Shown: one piece after another, positions 1 to 15,030 of the stretch
Layout: every line of letters starts with the position of its first letter
Position numbering within the stretch: the stretch's first letter is position 1
Virus genome (UHGV): UHGV-0275691
DNA: 24,961 nt
Origin: a virus
Strand: one strand, 5' to 3'
Notes under the pieces: generated by a model
What the model saw: only the letters and a program-made list of their open reading frames with translations
Databases searched by the model: none
Told to the model about the DNA's origin: nothing
Position numbers and translations under genes: made by a program

Positions 1-262
1 AGGCGGAGCTGCATATTGAAGTTTTCCTGCCTGCTCAGGTGCCGGATTCAGAGCTGGATTCGTGGATGGAGTCCCGGATTTATCCGGTGATGAGACAGAC
101 CCGCATCATCGTCGCGCCGGTAGTCATAGCCACTGGCCACCATACTGGTGATCAAATCTGACAGTGCCGGGACATCGAGAGCTGGATTCGTGGATGGAGT
201 CCCGGATTTATCCGGTGATGAGCGATGTCCCGGCACTGTCAGATTTGATCACCAGTATGGTG
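1..262. repeat. Rearranged block made only of U-gene sequence: 1-94 is the exact reverse complement of 390-483; 95-177 is an exact direct copy of 307-389; 178-262 is the exact reverse complement of 350-434
   Basis: Base-by-base comparison inside the window; all three segments match with zero mismatches. No V (major tail) gene follows U. Confidence 0.9.
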
Positions 263-8469: not shown

Positions 8470-8495
<26 letters not shown>

Positions 8496-9015
8496 TCAGC
8501 AACCCCGGTATCAGTTCATCCAGCGCGGCTGCTTTGTTCATGGCTTTGATGATATCCCGTTTCAGGAAATCAACATGTCGGTTTTCCAGTTCCGGAAAAC
8601 GCCGCTGCACCGACAGGGGGATCCCGTCGAGAATACTGGCAATTTCACCTGCGATCCGCGACAGCACGAAAGTACAGAATGCGGTTTCCACCACTTCAGC
8701 GGAGTCTCTGGCATTTTTCAGCTCCTGTGCGTCGGCCTGCGCACGCGTAAGTCGATGGCGTTCGTACTCAATAGTCCCTGGCTGGAGATCTGTCTCGCTG
8801 GCCTGCCGCAGTTCTTCAACTTCCCGGCGCAGCTTTTCGTTCTCAATTTCAGCATCCCTTTCGGCATACCATTTTATGACGGCGGCAGAATCATAAAGCA
8901 CCTCATTACCCTTCCCACCACCCCGCAGAACGGGCATTCCCTGCTCCTGCCAGTTCTGAATGGTACGGATACTCGCGCCGAAAATGTCAGCCAGCTGCTT
9001 TTTGTTGACTTCCAT
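8470..9015 (-). CDS. Nu1: Terminase small subunit Nu1 (181 aa)
   Basis: Full-length match to recalled lambda Nu1; cos lies immediately upstream. Confidence 0.97.
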
Positions 9016-9193
9016 TGTTCATTCCACGGACAAAAACAGAGAAAGGAAACGACAGAGGCCAAAAAGCTCGCTTTCAGCACCTGTCGTTTCCTTTCTTTTC
9101 AGAGGGTATTTTAAATAAAAACATTAAGTTATGACGAAGAAGAACGGAAACGCCTTAAACCGGAAAATTTTCATAAATAGCGAAAACCCGCGA

Positions 9194-9205
9194 GGTCGCC
9201 GCCCC
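9194..9205. other. cos: cosN cohesive-end site (AGGTCGCCGCCC, complement of lambda GGGCGGCGACCT); cosB expected on the Nu1 side at about 9016-9190
   Basis: Exact 12-nt lambda cohesive-end sequence, flanked by sequence resembling lambda left and right ends, directly upstream of Nu1. Confidence 0.85.
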
Positions 9206-9404
9206 GTAACCTGTCGGATCGCCGGAAAGGACCCGCAAAATGATAATAATTATCATCTACATGTCACAACGTGCATCTACGCCATCAAACCACGTCAAAT
9301 AATCAATTATGACGCAGGTATCGTATTAATTGATCTGCATCAACTTAACGTAAAAAAAACTTCAGACAATACAAATCAGCAACACAGAATACGGGACAAC
9401 CTCA

Positions 9405-9637
9405 TGTCAACGAAGAACAGAACCCGCAGAACAACAACCCGCAACATCCGCTTTCCTAACCAAATGATTGAACAAATTAACATCGCTCTTGTTCAAAAAG
9501 GGTCCGGGAATTTCTCAGCCTGGGTCATTGAAGCCTGCCGCCGGAGACTGTGCTCAGAAAAAAGAGTTTCGCCTGAAGCAAACAAAGAAAAGAGTGACAT
9601 TACTGAATTGCTCAGAAAACAGGTTAGACCAGATTGA
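9405..9637 (+). CDS. Small basic protein with a predicted ribbon-helix-helix-like fold (77 aa); cos-proximal ORF that I recall also being present at the lambda right end
   Basis: ORF with N-terminal Arg/Thr-rich stretch followed by a strand-helix-loop-helix pattern (IRFPNQMIEQINIALVQKGSGNFSAWVIEACRRRL); weak RBS; upstream part of the 168-aa track ORF crosses cosN so cannot be coding. Confidence 0.55.
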
Positions 9638-9694
9638 AGCAATCTAGATAATCGTGCAGACTACGCCCCCTCATATCACATGGAAGGTACTACA

Positions 9695-10105
9695 ATGGCT
9701 CAGGTTGCCATTTTTAAACAAATATTCGATAAAGTGCGAAATAATTTAAACTATCACTGGTTTTATTCTGAACTAAAACGTCACAATGTCTCACATTACA
9801 TTTACTATTTAGCCACAGAGAATATTCATCTTGTTCTTGAAAACGATAATACGGTTTTAATAAAAGGACAGGGTAAGGTTGTAAATGTAAGATTTTCAAA
9901 AAATAAATGCCTTATAGAAGCCACCTTAAAAGGATTCAAATCAGGAGAGTTATCATTTTACGAATACAGGAAAAATCTTGCTACAGCAGGGGTTTTCAGA
10001 TGGATTACAAATATCCACGAAAACAAAAGGTATTACTATACCTTTGATAATTCATTACTCTTTACTGAGAACATTCAGAACACTACACAAATATTTCCGC
10101 ACTAA
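9695..10105 (+). CDS. DUF1398-like (YbcV/YdfO-family) prophage protein, 136 aa
   Basis: ATG at 9695 with GAAGG RBS 8 nt upstream; translation resembles recalled E. coli YbcV-family proteins and the equivalent lambda right-end ORF; [13 protein letters not shown] motif. Confidence 0.7.
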
Positions 10106-10783
10106 ATCATAACGTCCGGTTTCTTCCGTGCCAGAACCGGACTCGCTGGCATGATGAAATATGTGTACCCGGTAACCCCGGTGTGCATCGTTTTTGATTA
10201 TTCCCGCACACTCGCGCAGAAGGAGTTCCCCGTCGGGCTACGGTCTCTGTTAATACGGGAACACGGCGACGATACAGCGCATGATGTGTCAGGCTTGAAT
10301 ACCTTTATCCTTTAAAAGGGATATCAGTTAAGTTATCCCGTGTAGGGTATAAGCCATTATCAAAGCCACTCTGTAGGGAATGGCTTTTGTGATGGCATCA
10401 CTTACTCTTTACGCTGCTATCCCACTCATCCCGGAATTTTGATGGGTTATTGAAACCTTCTGCTGACATAACAACTCCTTCAATGTTTGGCTGAAATTAG
10501 GATGTCTTTCCATCAGTCCGCCACCACAAAGAATCTTTTTTGCCATAAGGCAGGAGGTTCATCTTTCAGTGGCTGCCGGTGTTATTTCCCCACTTACTGG
10601 CTTGGGTTGTTTCGTGGTACTGCCGTTAACTGGTGGCGCACAGATTTAGTTAAATCCGTTCTCGCCTGAACTATCTTTTACATACCCGGATTGTGGGGAT
10701 GTAAATCACGGTTTCATTATCAAGCCCACCAGTAGATGGGCTTTGTAATGAAGAGTTGTTATGAAAATTGCTCTAAACAAGCA

Positions 10784-11272
10784 TTAATAGCCATCAGAAG
10801 TAATCGCTACAGATTTCAATCCCTCAATGTCATCCTTGGACAGGGCGAACCATTCACCGTGCTTTCTCTTTGCGGCAAATTTGCGATGAAGCATGTTTTC
10901 AGTTTCTCTTCCACCAGGGATCAGGCACTCAAGCTTCAAGCAGTCTGGTCCAGAGTTGCCAAGCGATTTGATGCGTTGTGGAATGTTGGATGAATACCCA
11001 ATTTTGGTTAGCCCAGTTTTCTTCGATGACAAAACGTATACCTGAGGAGGTTCTTTTCTCTGGTCTTCCATTACACGTCTCATTGTTGCCATAAGTCCGC
11101 CGTGCATCAGCATTTCAACAAAGAACGCTGACCGAACACCTGACGACTTAAGCATGCCAGAAAATTCACTTGCCAATTCCATTAACTCTGCGATGTTTTC
11201 AGGAACTTTTTGGCAGTTATCTTCCTTGTATAAGGAAATCATTCTTTGAAGCTTTTCTTCTAATTGGTTCAT
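10784..11272 (-). CDS. T5orf172 (GIY-YIG-like) domain protein with an uncharacterised helical N-terminal domain, 162 aa
   Basis: C-terminal region VYVLSS..GLTKIGYSSNIPQRIKSL...ENMLHRKFAAKRKHGEWFAL fits the T5orf172/GIY-YIG-like motif order (YxL, KIGxS, R, E, GEWF); ATG at 11270-11272; the track start at 11308 is a GTG. Confidence 0.65.
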   Translation of the reverse strand: MNQLEEKLQRMISLYKEDNCQKVPENIAELMELASEFSGMLKSSGVRSAFFVEMLMHGGLMATMRRVMEDQRKEPPQVYVLSSKKTGLTKIGYSSNIPQRIKSLGNSGPDCLKLECLIPGGRETENMLHRKFAAKRKHGEWFALSKDDIEGLKSVAITSDGY

Positions 11273-11421
11273 AGCGTCTTTACCTTTTAGAAAGTGAGCC
11301 TGTCTCACAGAAAAGCCGCCCCGAGATGGTCGCCACCATATACGGCAGTTCTCAGGCTCAACTTTCTGAAAGGCTCGGGTGATGTAATATGCGCGTGAGA
11401 TGCGCTGTGAAATTCAGATGT

Positions 11422-11445
11422 AAAAAAAGCCCCGCATCGCGAGGC
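11422..11445 (-). terminator. Rho-independent terminator downstream of Rz (minus-strand RNA GCCUCGC-GAU-GCGGGGC then U7)
   Basis: 7-bp stem with one G-U pair followed by a seven-residue U tract, 30 nt after the Rz stop. Confidence 0.7.
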
Positions 11446-11477
11446 TCATTAAATGGACTTTGTGATTTGCAAAAAAA

Positions 11478-11951
11478 TTATTTCAGGCATTGCGTCCTGA
11501 TGTATTCCTGCAGGTAGTTAACCTGCGCGGTTATCTTGTCGATTCCACTTCGGAGACGGTAATAATTGAGTTCAGCATCTGCTGTAAGTCTTGGGCTTTC
11601 TCCATCGCCCATGCCGCTGGCTCCGGTCGTTGACTTTGCACAGGTGGCGGCGACTTGCAGGCGCTTACGCCCAGCAGAAACATCAGCACGGAGACTTTCG
11701 ATAGTCGCGTTAGCATCAGCAAGCTCCTTTGTGTATCTTGCGTCGAGTTCTGCTACATCACGTTGACGCTTCCGCATGTCAGCGATGGTGGCGTTCGCCT
11801 TCTCCAGTTCACTGGCCTTGTTATCGCGCTGCTCTTTGTAGGCGATTGCGTTATCACGGTAATGATTAACAGCCCATGACAGGCAGACGATGATGCAGAT
11901 AACCAGAGCATAAATAATCGCGGCGACTCTGCTCACTGATCTATCCCCCAA
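11478..11951 (-). CDS. Rz: Inner-membrane spanin Rz (i-spanin)
   Basis: N-terminal half matches lambda Rz ([22 protein letters not shown]); position after R; embedded Rz1 frame. Confidence 0.9.
11531..11722 (-). CDS. Rz1: Outer-membrane lipoprotein spanin Rz1 (o-spanin), embedded in Rz in the +1 frame
   Basis: Embedded ORF with signal peptide, lipobox-like VSAC and a Pro-rich mature region (KSPPPVQ), typical of Rz1. Confidence 0.7.
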
Positions 11952-12466
11952 CAGGCTAATGCGCTTTCCTGGTCACGACGAATAACCTGTCCATAGCAGT
12001 TATTTGAACGTATGCGGCAATCGCGCCCACCATCTTTTATCCACCAGCGAATCGCCTCGCATGCACCTTTACGATCACCGGCATTCAGCCGCTTATAAAA
12101 CGTCGACGGGAAACACTTACCGGGGCCAATGTTATAGGGACAAAATGACGCGATACCCGCTTTCTGTGGTTCGGTCAGTGGCACTTTAATATTGCGCTCC
12201 ACCCATGCCAGCGCCTTATCCCGTTCAATGGCGTTAACCTGGTCGCATTTTTCCTTCGACAGTTTCATACCGGGAAAAACGGGTTTTCCATCCACCACCG
12301 TGGCACCCCGACAGATGGTCCAGATGCCGGAACCATCGCGGTATGCCGTTGTGTGGTTACCTTCTTTTTCATCCAGAAACTGGTCGAGAATATCAGGCGC
12401 AGGCGCACCGACGGCAATCAGTGCCAGAACGGCAGCCGACAGGCCGTATCTGATTTTTGCGTTCAT
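11933..12466 (-). CDS. R: Endolysin R, T4-type lysozyme with N-terminal signal-anchor-release (SAR) domain
   Basis: 177 aa; hydrophobic N-terminus ([13 protein letters not shown]) followed by an [17 protein letters not shown] catalytic region, similar to phage 21 / Stx-phage SAR endolysins. Confidence 0.92.
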
Positions 12467-13519: not shown

Positions 13520-13947
13520 AAGCTGTGTGACGAAGTAACCACTCTTAACAGCATAACCAATTTTTTACGTACGTAAACCACTAAATGATATTTGCGAGAA
13601 TGCTACCGAGTATTGAAAACACCACTACAAATACATAAGCAAATCTCAACAAATAACCAACAAATAATTTCCAGCGTTATTTTTAGCCAATTTAAATTGA
13701 ACCTTCAAATTATAGAGCACTTATAAATAACAGCCATTAATATAAATTGGCTAATAGATTTATTTTTATTCAGCCAAGAGCCATGAATAGGATTCGATAG
13801 AAAAAAGTTCAGATAAAAATAGAGATCTACTTCACAAATTAAACGAGAAACCAAAACTTACATCTTGAAATAATCACATTGATTAGATGAATATTTATCG
13901 CGCAGTGACATCATTTTTTAATAATAGTTCAAAAAAAAGGGCTCACG

Positions 13948-15030
13948 ATGAAAAAATTAACAGTGGCAATTTCTGCTGTAGCTGCATCAGTACTGATGGC
14001 GATGTCTGCTCAGGCAGCTGAAATTTATAATAAAGACAGTAACAAGCTGGATCTGTACGGGAAAGTTAATGCTAAGCACTACTTCTCCTCTAATGATGCA
14101 GATGATGGTGATACTACTTATGCCCGTCTTGGCTTCAAAGGTGAAACCCAAATCAACGATCAACTGACTGGTTTCGGTCAGTGGGAATATGAATTCAAAG
14201 GCAACCGCGCTGAATCTCAAGGTTCTTCCAAAGACAAAACCCGTCTTGCATTTGCAGGCCTGAAATTTGGTGATTACGGCTCAATCGATTACGGCCGTAA
14301 CTACGGTGTAGCATACGACATCGGTGCGTGGACTGACGTCCTGCCAGAATTCGGTGGTGATACCTGGACCCAAACAGATGTGTTCATGACTGGTCGCACT
14401 ACTGGTGTTGCAACTTATCGTAACAACGACTTCTTTGGTCTGGTCGATGGCCTGAACTTTGCTGCTCAGTATCAGGGTAAAAATGACCGCACTGACGTAA
14501 CTGAAGCCAATGGTGATGGTTTCGGTTTCTCCACTACTTATGAGTATGAAGGATTCGGCGTGGGTGCAACCTATGCTAAATCAGATCGCACTGACGGTCA
14601 GGTCGCCTATGGTAAGAGCAAATTCAATGCCTCCGGCAAAAATGCGGAAGTATGGGCTGCAGGCCTGAAATATGATGCGAACAATATCTATCTGGCTACC
14701 ACATATTCTGAAACTCAGAATATGACCGTTTTTGGTAATAACCATATTGCAAACAAAGCACAAAACTTTGAAGCAGTAGCACAATATCAGTTTGACTTCG
14801 GTCTGCGCCCATCTGTTGCTTACCTTCAGTCAAAAGGTAAAGACCTTGGTGTTCATGGTGACCGAGACTTAGTCAAGTATGTCGATGTCGGTGCTACTTA
14901 CTACTTTAATAAAAACATGTCCACTTTTGTTGATTACAAAATCAACTTAATTGACGATAGTAAGTTTACCAAAACAGCTGGTATTGATACTGATGACATC
15001 GTTGCTGTAGGTCTGGTTTACCAGTTCTAA
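13948..15030 (+). CDS. nmpC: Phage-encoded OmpC/OmpF-family general porin (NmpC/Lc-like), 360 aa
   Basis: Signal peptide ending AQA/AE, conserved porin N-terminus ([17 protein letters not shown]) and C-terminal YQF; located between Q and S on the strand opposite the late genes, as for nmpC in DLP12 and lc in PA-2. Confidence 0.93.

What the first reader, a model, noticed from the sequence alone, without database searches (positions are those of the whole stretch)
10270..11445. T5orf172 (GIY-YIG-like) gene inserted near cos where lambda carries bor; candidate defence or selfish nuclease moron
The cos-proximal small ORF and DUF1398 gene are arranged as I recall them at the lambda right end, but about 170 bp past the DUF1398 stop (around 10270-10300) the sequence departs from the lambda sequence as I recall it, and no Bor lipoprotein ORF is present. 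Instead a 162-aa ORF on the late-gene strand has a C-terminal T5orf172/GIY-YIG-like motif set (YVL, KIGYS, conserved R and E, GEWF) fused to an unrecognised helical N-terminal domain. It lies downstream of a strong Rz terminator (11422-11445), so it is probably transcribed from its own promoter and could be expressed in the lysogen. Cargo genes between the lysis cassette and cos are often lysogenic-conversion or anti-phage functions, and T5orf172 domains recur in defence-associated and free-standing nuclease-like genes.
Basis: partly seen in the sequence, partly recalled or inferred. Interest (0 to 1): 0.75.

Follow-up and report, generated by a model that had tools for sequence, protein, structure and literature searches.

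The report
Phage nuclease-like cargo gene replacing bor
A lambda-like prophage of E. coli carries, where lambda has bor, a rare and uncharacterised 162-residue protein with a GIY-YIG-type nuclease domain. It is one of several interchangeable cargo genes that sit behind a shared, structured RNA leader after the lysis genes.

Summary
Homology to lambda stops at window 10281 and resumes at 11667 inside Rz. No Bor is encoded. A 162-aa ORF (10784-11272, late-gene strand) passes the Pfam thresholds for MUG113 and T5orf172.

The interpretation needs correction in three ways.
- This is not a one-off insertion. It is a rare allele of a widespread cargo slot between the Rz terminator and the packaging region in lambda-, HK97- and P22-like phages. 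Of 115 sampled loci, 65 carry Rha, 31 KilA-N, 8 HNH-AP2, 7 T5orf172 and 2 ANT.
- All these ORFs start directly after a shared ~140-nt leader that folds into a long hairpin supported by covariation. I found no conserved sigma-70 promoter in it, so expression from the Q-antiterminated late transcript is more likely than expression in the lysogen.
- The "unrecognised helical" N-terminus is homologous to a free-standing small protein (HK620 hkbL) encoded next to KilA-N genes.

The modelled C-terminal domain best matches GIY-YIG nucleases. The Tyr, Arg and Glu at the catalytic positions are invariant across the family.

Best reading: a nuclease expressed during lytic growth and used in conflicts between mobile elements. 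Its target is unknown. No defence-system model matches the whole protein. RefSeq already names the gene "GIY-YIG nuclease family protein". Interest is moderate.

The parts
10784..11272 (-). CDS of the 162-aa cargo protein, stop codon included (RefSeq WP_016245257, 'GIY-YIG nuclease family protein'; PHROG 4284)
   Evidence: identical or near-identical in phages Chlobot and HK106
11051..11272 (-). N-terminal three-helix domain (aa 1-74), homologous to free-standing HK620 hkbL / HK97p61 / mEpX1 gp62
10808..11044 (-). C-terminal T5orf172/MUG113 domain (aa 77-155) with a GIY-YIG-like fold
11273..11411 (-). Conserved structured leader between the Rz terminator and the start codon, shared by unrelated cargo ORFs
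   Evidence: covariance-model hit at window 11265-11411, 143.8 bits
11427..11447 (-). Intrinsic terminator after Rz
   Evidence: annotated as a terminator in HK106, HK544 and epsilon34
10501..10750 (.). Conserved downstream flank (96-98% identical to HK620, HK106 and Louie); includes the hairpin at 10722-10743 and the start of a small remnant ORF
10304..10371 (.). Second conserved downstream segment (91-98% identical in HK106, HK620, HK544, epsilon34, Louie and Chlobot)
10372..10500 (.). 129-bp stretch present in the window and HK544 but absent from HK106, HK620, epsilon34, Louie and Chlobot. In mEpX1 a full 123-aa gene lies between the same two conserved segments.
10282..11666 (.). Interval without nucleotide similarity to lambda; it replaces lambda 46236-46867 (end of Rz, bor and the bor upstream region)

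Best explanation
The gene is a non-essential cargo allele of the 'Rha/KilA-N slot' that follows the lysis cassette in lambdoid and P22-like phages.

The protein has two domains. The N-terminal domain is a three-helix module related to hkbL. I infer that it acts in protein-protein contact or regulation, not as a DNA reader. The C-terminal domain is a T5orf172 domain with the GIY-YIG fold. It keeps the first Tyr, the Arg and the Glu that are catalytic in I-TevI and in the T5orf172 nuclease Odn.

The gene is most likely transcribed as part of the Q-antiterminated late transcript, which reads through the Rz terminator. It would then be translated from the end of a conserved structured leader. Its product would therefore appear during lytic growth.

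There it most likely cuts or nicks DNA in a conflict between mobile elements. The target could be a slot allele that lacks it (homing-like spread), or a competing phage, satellite or host DNA.

Shown: domain identity, fold, invariant residues, slot organisation, the shared leader, and sporadic, recent spread. Inferred: nuclease activity, timing of expression, and the target.

For: Catalytic residues. Y79, K90, R100 and E125 are invariant, and H129 and E140 nearly so, in 66 relatives down to ~20% identity. The profile aligns VY..KIGyS..R with UvrC and T4 EndoII. Odn, a T5orf172 protein with the same N-to-C domain order, is a proven nuclease that E180A inactivates. It also lacks the helix-1 His/Tyr (PMC8263062).

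Genomic setting. T5orf172 genes sit at recombination boundaries near terminase genes (PMC10448857). Among 115 loci sharing the leader, 8 carry HNH_3-AP2 endonuclease genes in the same position.

Spread. The gene is in 82 of 5426 E. coli genomes, all at >=99% identity and single copy. The ORF differs by 1 nt between the window and HK106, although the whole shared 1289-bp stretch is only 96.4% identical.

Expression. It is on the same strand as the late genes and downstream of a strong terminator. No conserved promoter was found.

Position in a distant relative. The 49%-identical homologue P0014 also lies between a lysis cassette and the packaging and head genes (a portal gene is recognisable), behind the same leader.
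Against: - No biochemical or expression data exist for this family.
- The second GIY-YIG tyrosine is replaced by an invariant Lys (K90), and the generic GIY-YIG HMM is below threshold.
- There is no recognisable DNA-binding domain. About 87% of surveyed T5orf172 homing genes carry Zn-finger DNA-binding domains (PMC10448857). This protein has none, so sequence-specific targeting is unexplained.
- Most occupants of the slot are Rha, KilA-N or ANT proteins, which are regulator- or antirepressor-like rather than nucleases.
- A weak promoter-like match exists in this leader type (9 of 12), so some expression in the lysogen cannot be excluded.
- No target-site features or flanking repeats mark the cassette.
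Confidence: 0.45

Rival explanations
1. Regulator or antirepressor-like function without catalysis. The protein would be a functional analogue of the Rha, KilA-N and ANT proteins that usually occupy the slot. Its T5orf172 domain would bind DNA and its hkbL-like domain would contact a partner, modulating phage or host gene expression or prophage induction.
For: - The slot holds Rha in 65 and KilA-N in 31 of 115 loci.
- Free-standing hkbL follows hkbK-type KilA-N genes in 20 of 23 loci.
- Distant family members overlap Rha or Bro-N genes. One sits in an Arc / Bro-N / Rha / T5orf172 operon that resembles an antirepressor (immI) region.
- T5orf172 was first predicted to bind DNA because it co-occurs with Bro-N and KilA-N (PMC8096241).
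Against: - The residues equivalent to the catalytic Arg and Glu are invariant across very divergent relatives. That is not expected for a purely DNA-binding scaffold.
- The only T5orf172 domain tested biochemically is a nuclease (PMC8263062).
- HNH-AP2 endonuclease genes also use this slot.
Confidence: 0.25
2. One reading: a moron expressed in the lysogen from its own promoter, which defends the host against superinfecting phages by exclusion or abortive infection through nuclease action.
For: - Its position is equivalent to bor, in a region where lysogenic-conversion genes occur.
- PADLOC gives a weak hit to the defence candidate PDC-S57 (E=8e-6).
- This leader type contains a 9-of-12 promoter-like match.
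- In phage Louie the same slot holds a Tad2-like anti-Thoeris gene, so the slot does host genes involved in phage-host conflict.
Against: - The PADLOC hit covers only the nuclease domain (residues 85-158 against positions 3-83 of a 212-position model).
- No conserved promoter is present. The candidate lacks the -10 final T and is absent from the other leader types.
- The gene is co-oriented with the late operon, whereas bor is on the opposite strand.
- The shared leader also precedes genes typical of the lytic cycle.
- There is no partner gene and no immunity function.
Confidence: 0.15
3. A decaying or neutral passenger with no current function, carried along by recombination in the conserved flanks.
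For: - The neighbouring downstream segment contains gene remnants and indels.
- Truncated copies of the gene exist in databases (P0010-P0012, P0015). One E. coli genome carries only half of it (H100).
Against: - The full-length ORF is intact in 80 of the 82 E. coli genomes that carry it.
- The family is conserved from 98% down to ~30% identity with invariant motif residues, and the same two-domain architecture recurs in different phage types.
Confidence: 0.05

Closest known systems
Odn (ICP1 gp88), origin-directed T5orf172 nuclease (PMC8263062)
   Same: It has a C-terminal T5orf172 domain preceded by an unrelated N-terminal domain. It keeps the catalytic Arg and Glu and lacks the helix-1 His/Tyr. 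It is phage-encoded and used in a conflict between mobile elements.
   Different: The N-terminus of Odn is a RepA_N-like DNA-binding domain that explains its target. Here the N-terminus is a 74-aa three-helix bundle with no DNA-binding signature. The two proteins were not compared directly.
T5orf172 homing-endonuclease genes of ICP1, T5-like and other phages (PMC10448857)
   Same: Same nuclease domain family, sporadic distribution, location at a mosaic boundary next to packaging genes, and modular exchange of domains.
   Different: About 87% of those genes carry CapR/DUF723/DUF4397 Zn-finger DNA-binding domains, often with the nuclease domain at the other terminus. This protein has no Zn finger (C20 is the only well-conserved Cys outside the T5orf172 domain). 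It is much smaller and lives in temperate phages.
HK620 hkbK/hkbL, HK97 gp60/p61, mEpX1 gp61/gp62 (a KilA-N-ORF11CD3 protein plus a small helical protein)
   Same: Same slot, same leader and same downstream flank. hkbL is homologous to the N-terminal domain here.
   Different: In those phages the helical module is a separate 77-85 aa protein encoded after a KilA-N gene. Here it is fused in front of a T5orf172 domain and no KilA-N gene is present.
P22 / phi80 Rha (Phage_pRha)
   Same: It is the commonest occupant of the same slot, behind the same leader family. From my own knowledge (Henthorn & Friedman 1995), Rha is dispensable and inhibits phage growth in hosts that lack IHF.
   Different: The fold and sequence are unrelated, and there is no nuclease motif.
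Small single-domain GIY-YIG nucleases: I-TevI catalytic domain, T4 EndoII, SLX1, UvrC N-terminal domain
   Different: The second Tyr is replaced by Lys, and the sequence is below the Pfam GIY-YIG threshold. None of these proteins has the hkbL-like domain.
lambda bor
   Same: Positional equivalent between Rz and the DUF1398 gene.
   Different: bor is on the opposite strand, encodes a lipoprotein and is expressed in the lysogen. There is no sequence relationship.

Membership tests
T5orf172 / MUG113 (Pfam PF10544, PF13455; clan GIY-YIG) | HMM score above the curated gathering threshold | tested here: met
   MUG113 scores 55.7 bits (cut-off 22.3). T5orf172 scores 40.8 bits (cut-off 20)..
GIY-YIG nuclease superfamily | The beta-beta-alpha-beta-alpha core fold | tested here: met
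GIY-YIG nuclease superfamily | Match to the canonical GIY-YIG sequence model (PF01541) | tested here: not met
   12.5 bits against a cut-off of 22.6; E=0.18.
GIY-YIG nuclease superfamily | Catalytic residues: Tyr (GIY), Tyr (YIG), Arg, Glu, Asn | tested here: inconclusive
   Y79, R100 and E125 are invariant. Y79 and R100 align with the UvrC and EndoII motifs. The second Tyr position is an invariant Lys (K90). The equivalence of E125 to I-TevI E75 rests on my recalled I-TevI motif ERENFW against ETENML. The Asn equivalent was not identified.
Free-standing T5orf172 homing endonuclease genes (as defined in PMC10448857) | A DNA-binding domain (CapR/DUF723/DUF4397 Zn finger or similar) joined to the nuclease domain | tested here: not met
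Free-standing T5orf172 homing endonuclease genes (as defined in PMC10448857) | Sporadic presence among otherwise similar genomes, at a recombination boundary near essential genes | tested here: met
   Present in 82 of 5426 E. coli genomes. Found in 7 of 115 loci that share the leader. Lies between the lysis genes and cos/terminase.
Free-standing T5orf172 homing endonuclease genes (as defined in PMC10448857) | Cleaves the allele that lacks it and is copied into the break | not testable with these tools
   This needs in vitro cleavage assays and mixed-infection crosses.
Moron (promoter - ORF - terminator unit; Juhala et al. 2000, from my own knowledge) | Its own sigma-70 promoter upstream of the ORF | tested here: not met
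   No site on the gene's strand between 11447 and 11272. The best candidate scores 9 of 12, lacks the -10 final T and is not conserved in the other leader types.
Moron (promoter - ORF - terminator unit; Juhala et al. 2000, from my own knowledge) | An intrinsic terminator directly downstream | tested here: not met
   The hairpin at 10722-10743 is followed on the gene's strand by GATAATG, which is not a U tract.
Known or candidate anti-phage defence systems (PADLOC-DB v2) | Full-length match to a system protein | tested here: not met
   The only hit is PDC-S57 at E=8e-6, residues 85-158 against model positions 3-83 of 212. There is no hit to PD-T4-3 or any other GIY-YIG defence model.
hkbL-like small proteins (phrog_875) | Sequence homology over the three-helix module | tested here: met
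   hkbL against phrog_4284 gives E=4.3e-6. epsilon34 gp68 against phrog_875 gives 1.4e-6. blastp of an epsilon34 gp68-identical protein (L109) against hkbL gives 1.4e-9.

The most novel reading that the evidence does not exclude
There are two parts.

(1) The hkbL-like three-helix module would be an adaptor. It would couple a non-specific GIY-YIG-type nuclease domain to separately encoded DNA-binding proteins of the KilA-N / Rha / Bro-N class, possibly those of a competing phage. That would make a two-part targeting nuclease for warfare between phages. It would also explain why hkbL is found free next to KilA-N genes and fused to T5orf172 genes that lie beside or overlap Rha or Bro-N genes.

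(2) The ~140-nt leader shared by all these cargo genes would be an undescribed cis-regulatory RNA. One possibility is an RNase III-processed hairpin that unmasks the ribosome-binding site, as in the lambda N leader. It would also serve as the recombination handle that lets whole ORFs be swapped.
Probability: 0.15. Interest if true: 0.7.

Novelty: new variant of a known kind. Interest (0 to 1): 0.42.

Why it matters
T5orf172 proteins are abundant in phages, but only a few from one vibriophage system have been tested. This family has a different, small architecture (hkbL-like module plus T5orf172), occurs in the best-studied temperate phage groups, and is easy to manipulate genetically.

Placing it in the Rha/KilA-N slot ties a probable nuclease to the old, unsolved question of what Rha, KilA-N and Bro proteins do.

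The shared structured leader gives a concrete handle on two things: how these accessory genes are expressed, and how whole ORFs are exchanged between lambda-, HK97- and P22-like phages.

If the gene proves to be a homing or competition nuclease, it would be a simple model for how such genes shape mosaic boundaries in temperate phages.

Tried and rejected
- A word-indexed homology search with the N-terminal domain profile returned only members of the same family and fragments, and no new architectures.
- NCBIfam has no model for the protein or for hkbL.
- Rfam has no family in window 9000-12000 apart from two chance miRNA-like hits near cos.
- A role in cos cleavage, like the HK97 gp74 HNH protein, was rejected. 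HK106 carries both genes. The T5orf172 gene is rare and alternates with Rha and KilA-N genes.
- Transposon-like insertion was rejected. No flanking direct or inverted repeats mark the cassette. The swap boundaries fall at the start codon and 0-33 nt after the stop codon.
- dN/dS was not informative. The window, HK106 and Chlobot copies differ by 0-1 nt.
- Literature searches for this slot, for Rha/IHF, or for a defence hotspot after the lysis cassette gave nothing specific.

Full report
**Where the window comes from.** It is a lambda-like prophage of E. coli. The stretch 10100-11480 is 100% identical to strain 3359, and more than 70 other genomes match it at about 99.9%. The late genes are on the minus strand. 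From low to high coordinates:
- Nu1/nohD, 8470-9015 (-)
- cos, near 9100
- a YlcI/DUF3950 gene, 9404-9637 (+)
- a DUF1398 gene, 9695-10105 (+)
- the gene in question, 10784-11272 (-)
- a strong terminator, 11427-11447 (-)
- Rz, 11478-11951 (-)
- the lysozyme gene R, 11933-12466 (-)

blastn against the right end of lambda matches window 9205-9566 at 94% and 9621-10281 at 83%. There is then no match until 11667-11935, inside Rz. The interval 10282-11666 therefore replaces lambda 46236-46867, which holds the end of Rz, bor and the bor upstream region. tblastn with Bor finds nothing. The 162-aa ORF passes the curated Pfam thresholds for MUG113 (55.7 bits) and T5orf172 (40.8 bits), but not for the generic GIY-YIG model (12.5 bits).

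**The gene is already catalogued, but nothing is known about it.** RefSeq names it "GIY-YIG nuclease family protein" (WP_016245257). It matches PHROG 4284 ("unknown function") over its full length (E=5e-91). Phage Chlobot carries an identical protein and HK106 gp64 is 99.4% identical (one residue differs). Salmonella phage epsilon34 gp68 is a homologue at 33% identity. It is present in 82 of 5426 complete E. coli genomes, always as a single copy at >=99% nucleotide identity. I found no paper that mentions the family.

**The protein has two domains.** An alignment of 66 relatives gave a confident AF2 model with pLDDT 90.7.
- *Residues 1-74* form a three-helix bundle.
  - The domain is not an orphan. 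HK620 hkbL, HK97p61 and mEpX1 gp62 (77-85 aa; phrog_875) are homologous to it. hkbL hits phrog_4284 at 4.3e-6, and epsilon34 gp68 hits phrog_875 at 1.4e-6.
- *Residues 77-155* have the order beta-beta-alpha-beta-alpha-beta-alpha.
  - At sequence level only sub-threshold alignments to UvrC and EndoII are seen. They cover VY..KIGyS..R.
  - Y79, K90, I91, G92, R100 and E125 are invariant across the 66 sequences. H129 and G139-E140-W141-F142 are nearly so. The first Tyr, the Arg and the Glu of the GIY-YIG site are therefore kept. The second Tyr is an invariant Lys.
  - The helix-1 His/Tyr is missing, as it is in Odn. Odn is the one T5orf172 protein shown to be a nuclease, and E180A inactivates it (PMC8263062).

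**The gene is an allele of a cargo slot, not an insertion.**
- Local blastn shows that the flanks are shared with phages that carry quite different genes. Window 11268-11446 is 86-88% identical to HK620 and epsilon34. Window 10304-10371 and 10501-10750 are 91-98% identical to HK106, HK620, HK544, epsilon34, Louie and Chlobot.
- The other occupants of the slot:
  - HK620, HK97, HK022-type phages and mEpX1 carry a KilA-N-ORF11CD3 gene immediately followed by hkbL.
  - HK544 carries a KilA-N gene alone.
  - P22 carries rha.
  - Louie carries a Tad2-like anti-Thoeris gene (Pfam E=9e-27).
- Homology between alleles breaks within a few bases of the start codon. On the other side it breaks 0-33 nt after the stop codon.
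Of these, 115 had a scorable first ORF, and Pfam on cluster representatives gave these classes:

| Cargo class | Loci |
|---|---|
| Phage_pRha | 65 (plus one weak Rha-like) |
| KilA-N | 31 |
| HNH_3-AP2 endonuclease | 8 |
| T5orf172 | 7 |
| ANT | 2 |
| fragment | 1 |

- Free-standing hkbL accompanies 20 of the 23 hkbK-type KilA-N loci and none of the other classes at the threshold used.

**Distant relatives stay close to the same protein families.**
- P0014 (49% identical) lies between a holin/endolysin cassette and the packaging and head genes, of which a portal gene is recognisable.
- P0087 overlaps the start of a Bro-N gene just upstream of the lysis genes.
- P0078 overlaps the end of a Rha gene in an Arc / Bro-N / Rha / T5orf172 / Imm_superinfect cluster between the tail chaperone and tape-measure genes. 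That layout recalls an antirepressor (immI) region.
- This agrees with the long-known shuffling of T5orf172 with Bro-N and KilA-N domains (cited in PMC8096241).

**How the gene is probably expressed.**
- The ~155 nt between the Rz terminator and the ATG are conserved in front of unrelated ORFs.
- Four sequence types each fold, independently, into the same long hairpin. It has a lower stem of 17-20 bp, a 6-7 nt bulge on the 3' side beginning CUGUG, upper stems, and an apical UGGCGA(C/G)C.
- In the window's type the 3' strand of the lower stem includes the AAAAGG Shine-Dalgarno region (z = -3.5 for the 201-nt stretch).
- Support for the structure:
  - RNAalifold on an unfitted MAFFT alignment finds 8 of 17 pairs with compensatory changes.
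  - A covariance model was built from it.
  - In the model-fitted alignment, 89% of cells are paired against 39-51% when partners are slid. 28 of 38 pairs show changes on both sides. The covariation score is 0.27 against at most 0.09.
- Caveats:
  - The fitted alignment leans towards the structure.
  - The sequences fall into a few clades.
  - The invariance of TGGCGA..GGGC..CTGTG was imposed by my search pattern.
- Hits that the pattern did not select:
  - upstream of the P0014 T5orf172 gene;
  - in front of the KilA-N genes of HK97 and mEpX1;
  - at second sites in five phage contigs, in front of other accessory ORFs. These are a second HNH-type gene, a KilA-N gene, and ORFs I did not identify.
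- Rfam has no family here.
- I found no conserved sigma-70 promoter. The scan reports none on this strand. The best candidate in this leader type is TTCACA-16-TATTAC, which lacks the final T of the -10. The other types score at most 8 of 12.
- The hairpin after the gene (10722-10743) has no U tract on the gene's strand.
- Together with the orientation, this points to expression from the Q-antiterminated late transcript rather than from a lysogen promoter. That conclusion is an inference, not a measurement.

**What the protein most likely does.**
- *Favoured reading (confidence 0.45).*
  - The invariant catalytic-type residues, the GIY-YIG fold, the Odn precedent and the HNH-AP2 endonuclease genes in the same slot all point to a DNA nuclease.
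  - The ORF also appears to have moved recently. It differs by 1 nt between the window and HK106, although the shared 1289-bp stretch is only 96.4% identical overall.
  - I therefore favour a nuclease made during lytic growth. It would act in conflicts between mobile elements, either by homing-like spread or by cutting competitor or host DNA.
  - The weak point is targeting. No DNA-binding domain is present, unlike about 87% of the T5orf172 homing genes surveyed (PMC10448857).
- *Main rival (0.25).* A non-catalytic, regulator-like role analogous to Rha and KilA-N. The usual occupants of the slot and the operon links to Rha and Bro-N support it.
- *A functionless passenger (0.05).* Unlikely, given how well the family is conserved.

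**Verdict.** The gene is a real but already annotated member of the T5orf172 family, with an undescribed small architecture. It is one allele of a widespread cargo slot, not a special insertion. The claims about a promoter, lysogen expression and defence are not supported by the sequence. Interest in the gene itself is moderate. The shared structured leader and the hkbL link to KilA-N genes are the less expected results.

Noticed in passing
window 11273-11411 (minus strand); also L012 4865-5008, L009 2052-2202, L010 2074-2223, L107 336-465, L057 3119-3241, L020 8509-8630: A ~140-nt conserved leader precedes unrelated accessory ORFs (Rha, KilA-N, HNH-AP2, T5orf172, ANT) in lambda-, HK97- and P22-like phages, sometimes at two places in one genome. 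It folds into a long bulged hairpin with compensatory changes, and there is no Rfam match. It may be an RNase III site, a translational control element or a recombination handle.
   Followed up: partly
L004 1843-2100 (HK620 hkbL), L009 1097-1330, L011 1527-1784: A free-standing 77-85 aa helical protein (phrog_875) directly follows or overlaps hkbK-type KilA-N-ORF11CD3 genes (20 of 23 loci). It is homologous to the N-terminal domain of the T5orf172 protein. This suggests a functional pairing between the helical module and KilA-N-type proteins.
   Followed up: partly
L007 639-1109 (phage Louie): In this phage the post-Rz slot holds a Tad2-like (Thoeris anti-defence 2) gene, Pfam PF11195 E=9e-27. 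It has a short intergenic region instead of the structured leader.
   Followed up: no
L057 8092-8245 and 3119-3241; L028, L063: HNH_3-AP2 endonuclease genes of the homing-endonuclease type occupy the same slot behind the same leader in 8 of 115 loci. In L057 a second leader copy elsewhere in the contig precedes another HNH-type gene.
   Followed up: partly
window 10355-10393 and 10715-10745: Two similar hairpin units of the form CATTATCAA - hairpin - TTGTRATG lie in the conserved segment downstream of the cargo gene. A related ATCACAAAG.CCATT motif also sits between the Rz stop codon and its terminator (11452-11466).
   Followed up: no
window 10372-10500 and the small ORF 10409-10546 (minus strand): This 129-bp stretch is present in the window and HK544 but absent from HK106, HK620, epsilon34, Louie and Chlobot. 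The 45-aa ORF shares only its first 15 residues (MAKKILCGGGLMERH) with a 35-aa ORF annotated in Louie. mEpX1 has a complete 123-aa gene between the same two conserved segments, so this looks like a decaying gene.
   Followed up: partly
window 1-262: The left end of the window carries direct and inverted duplications relative to the matching tail-gene region of strain 3359 (window 1-94 and 164-262 match in reverse, 95-177 forward). This could be a rearrangement or an assembly artefact.
   Followed up: no
window ~13561-13578 and ~14654-14663, compared with L001 15482-18001 and 19105-19871: The window lacks the IS66-family (ISEc23) and IS1 insertions present in the otherwise near-identical prophage of strain 3359. 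The IS1 interrupts a porin gene there. The window therefore comes from a relative with the uninterrupted arrangement.
   Followed up: no
window 9695-10105: The DUF1398 gene, the homologue of lambda lambdap78, is labelled 'head protein' in PHROGs and RefSeq. It lies on the strand opposite to the late genes, next to cos, so the label looks doubtful.
   Followed up: no
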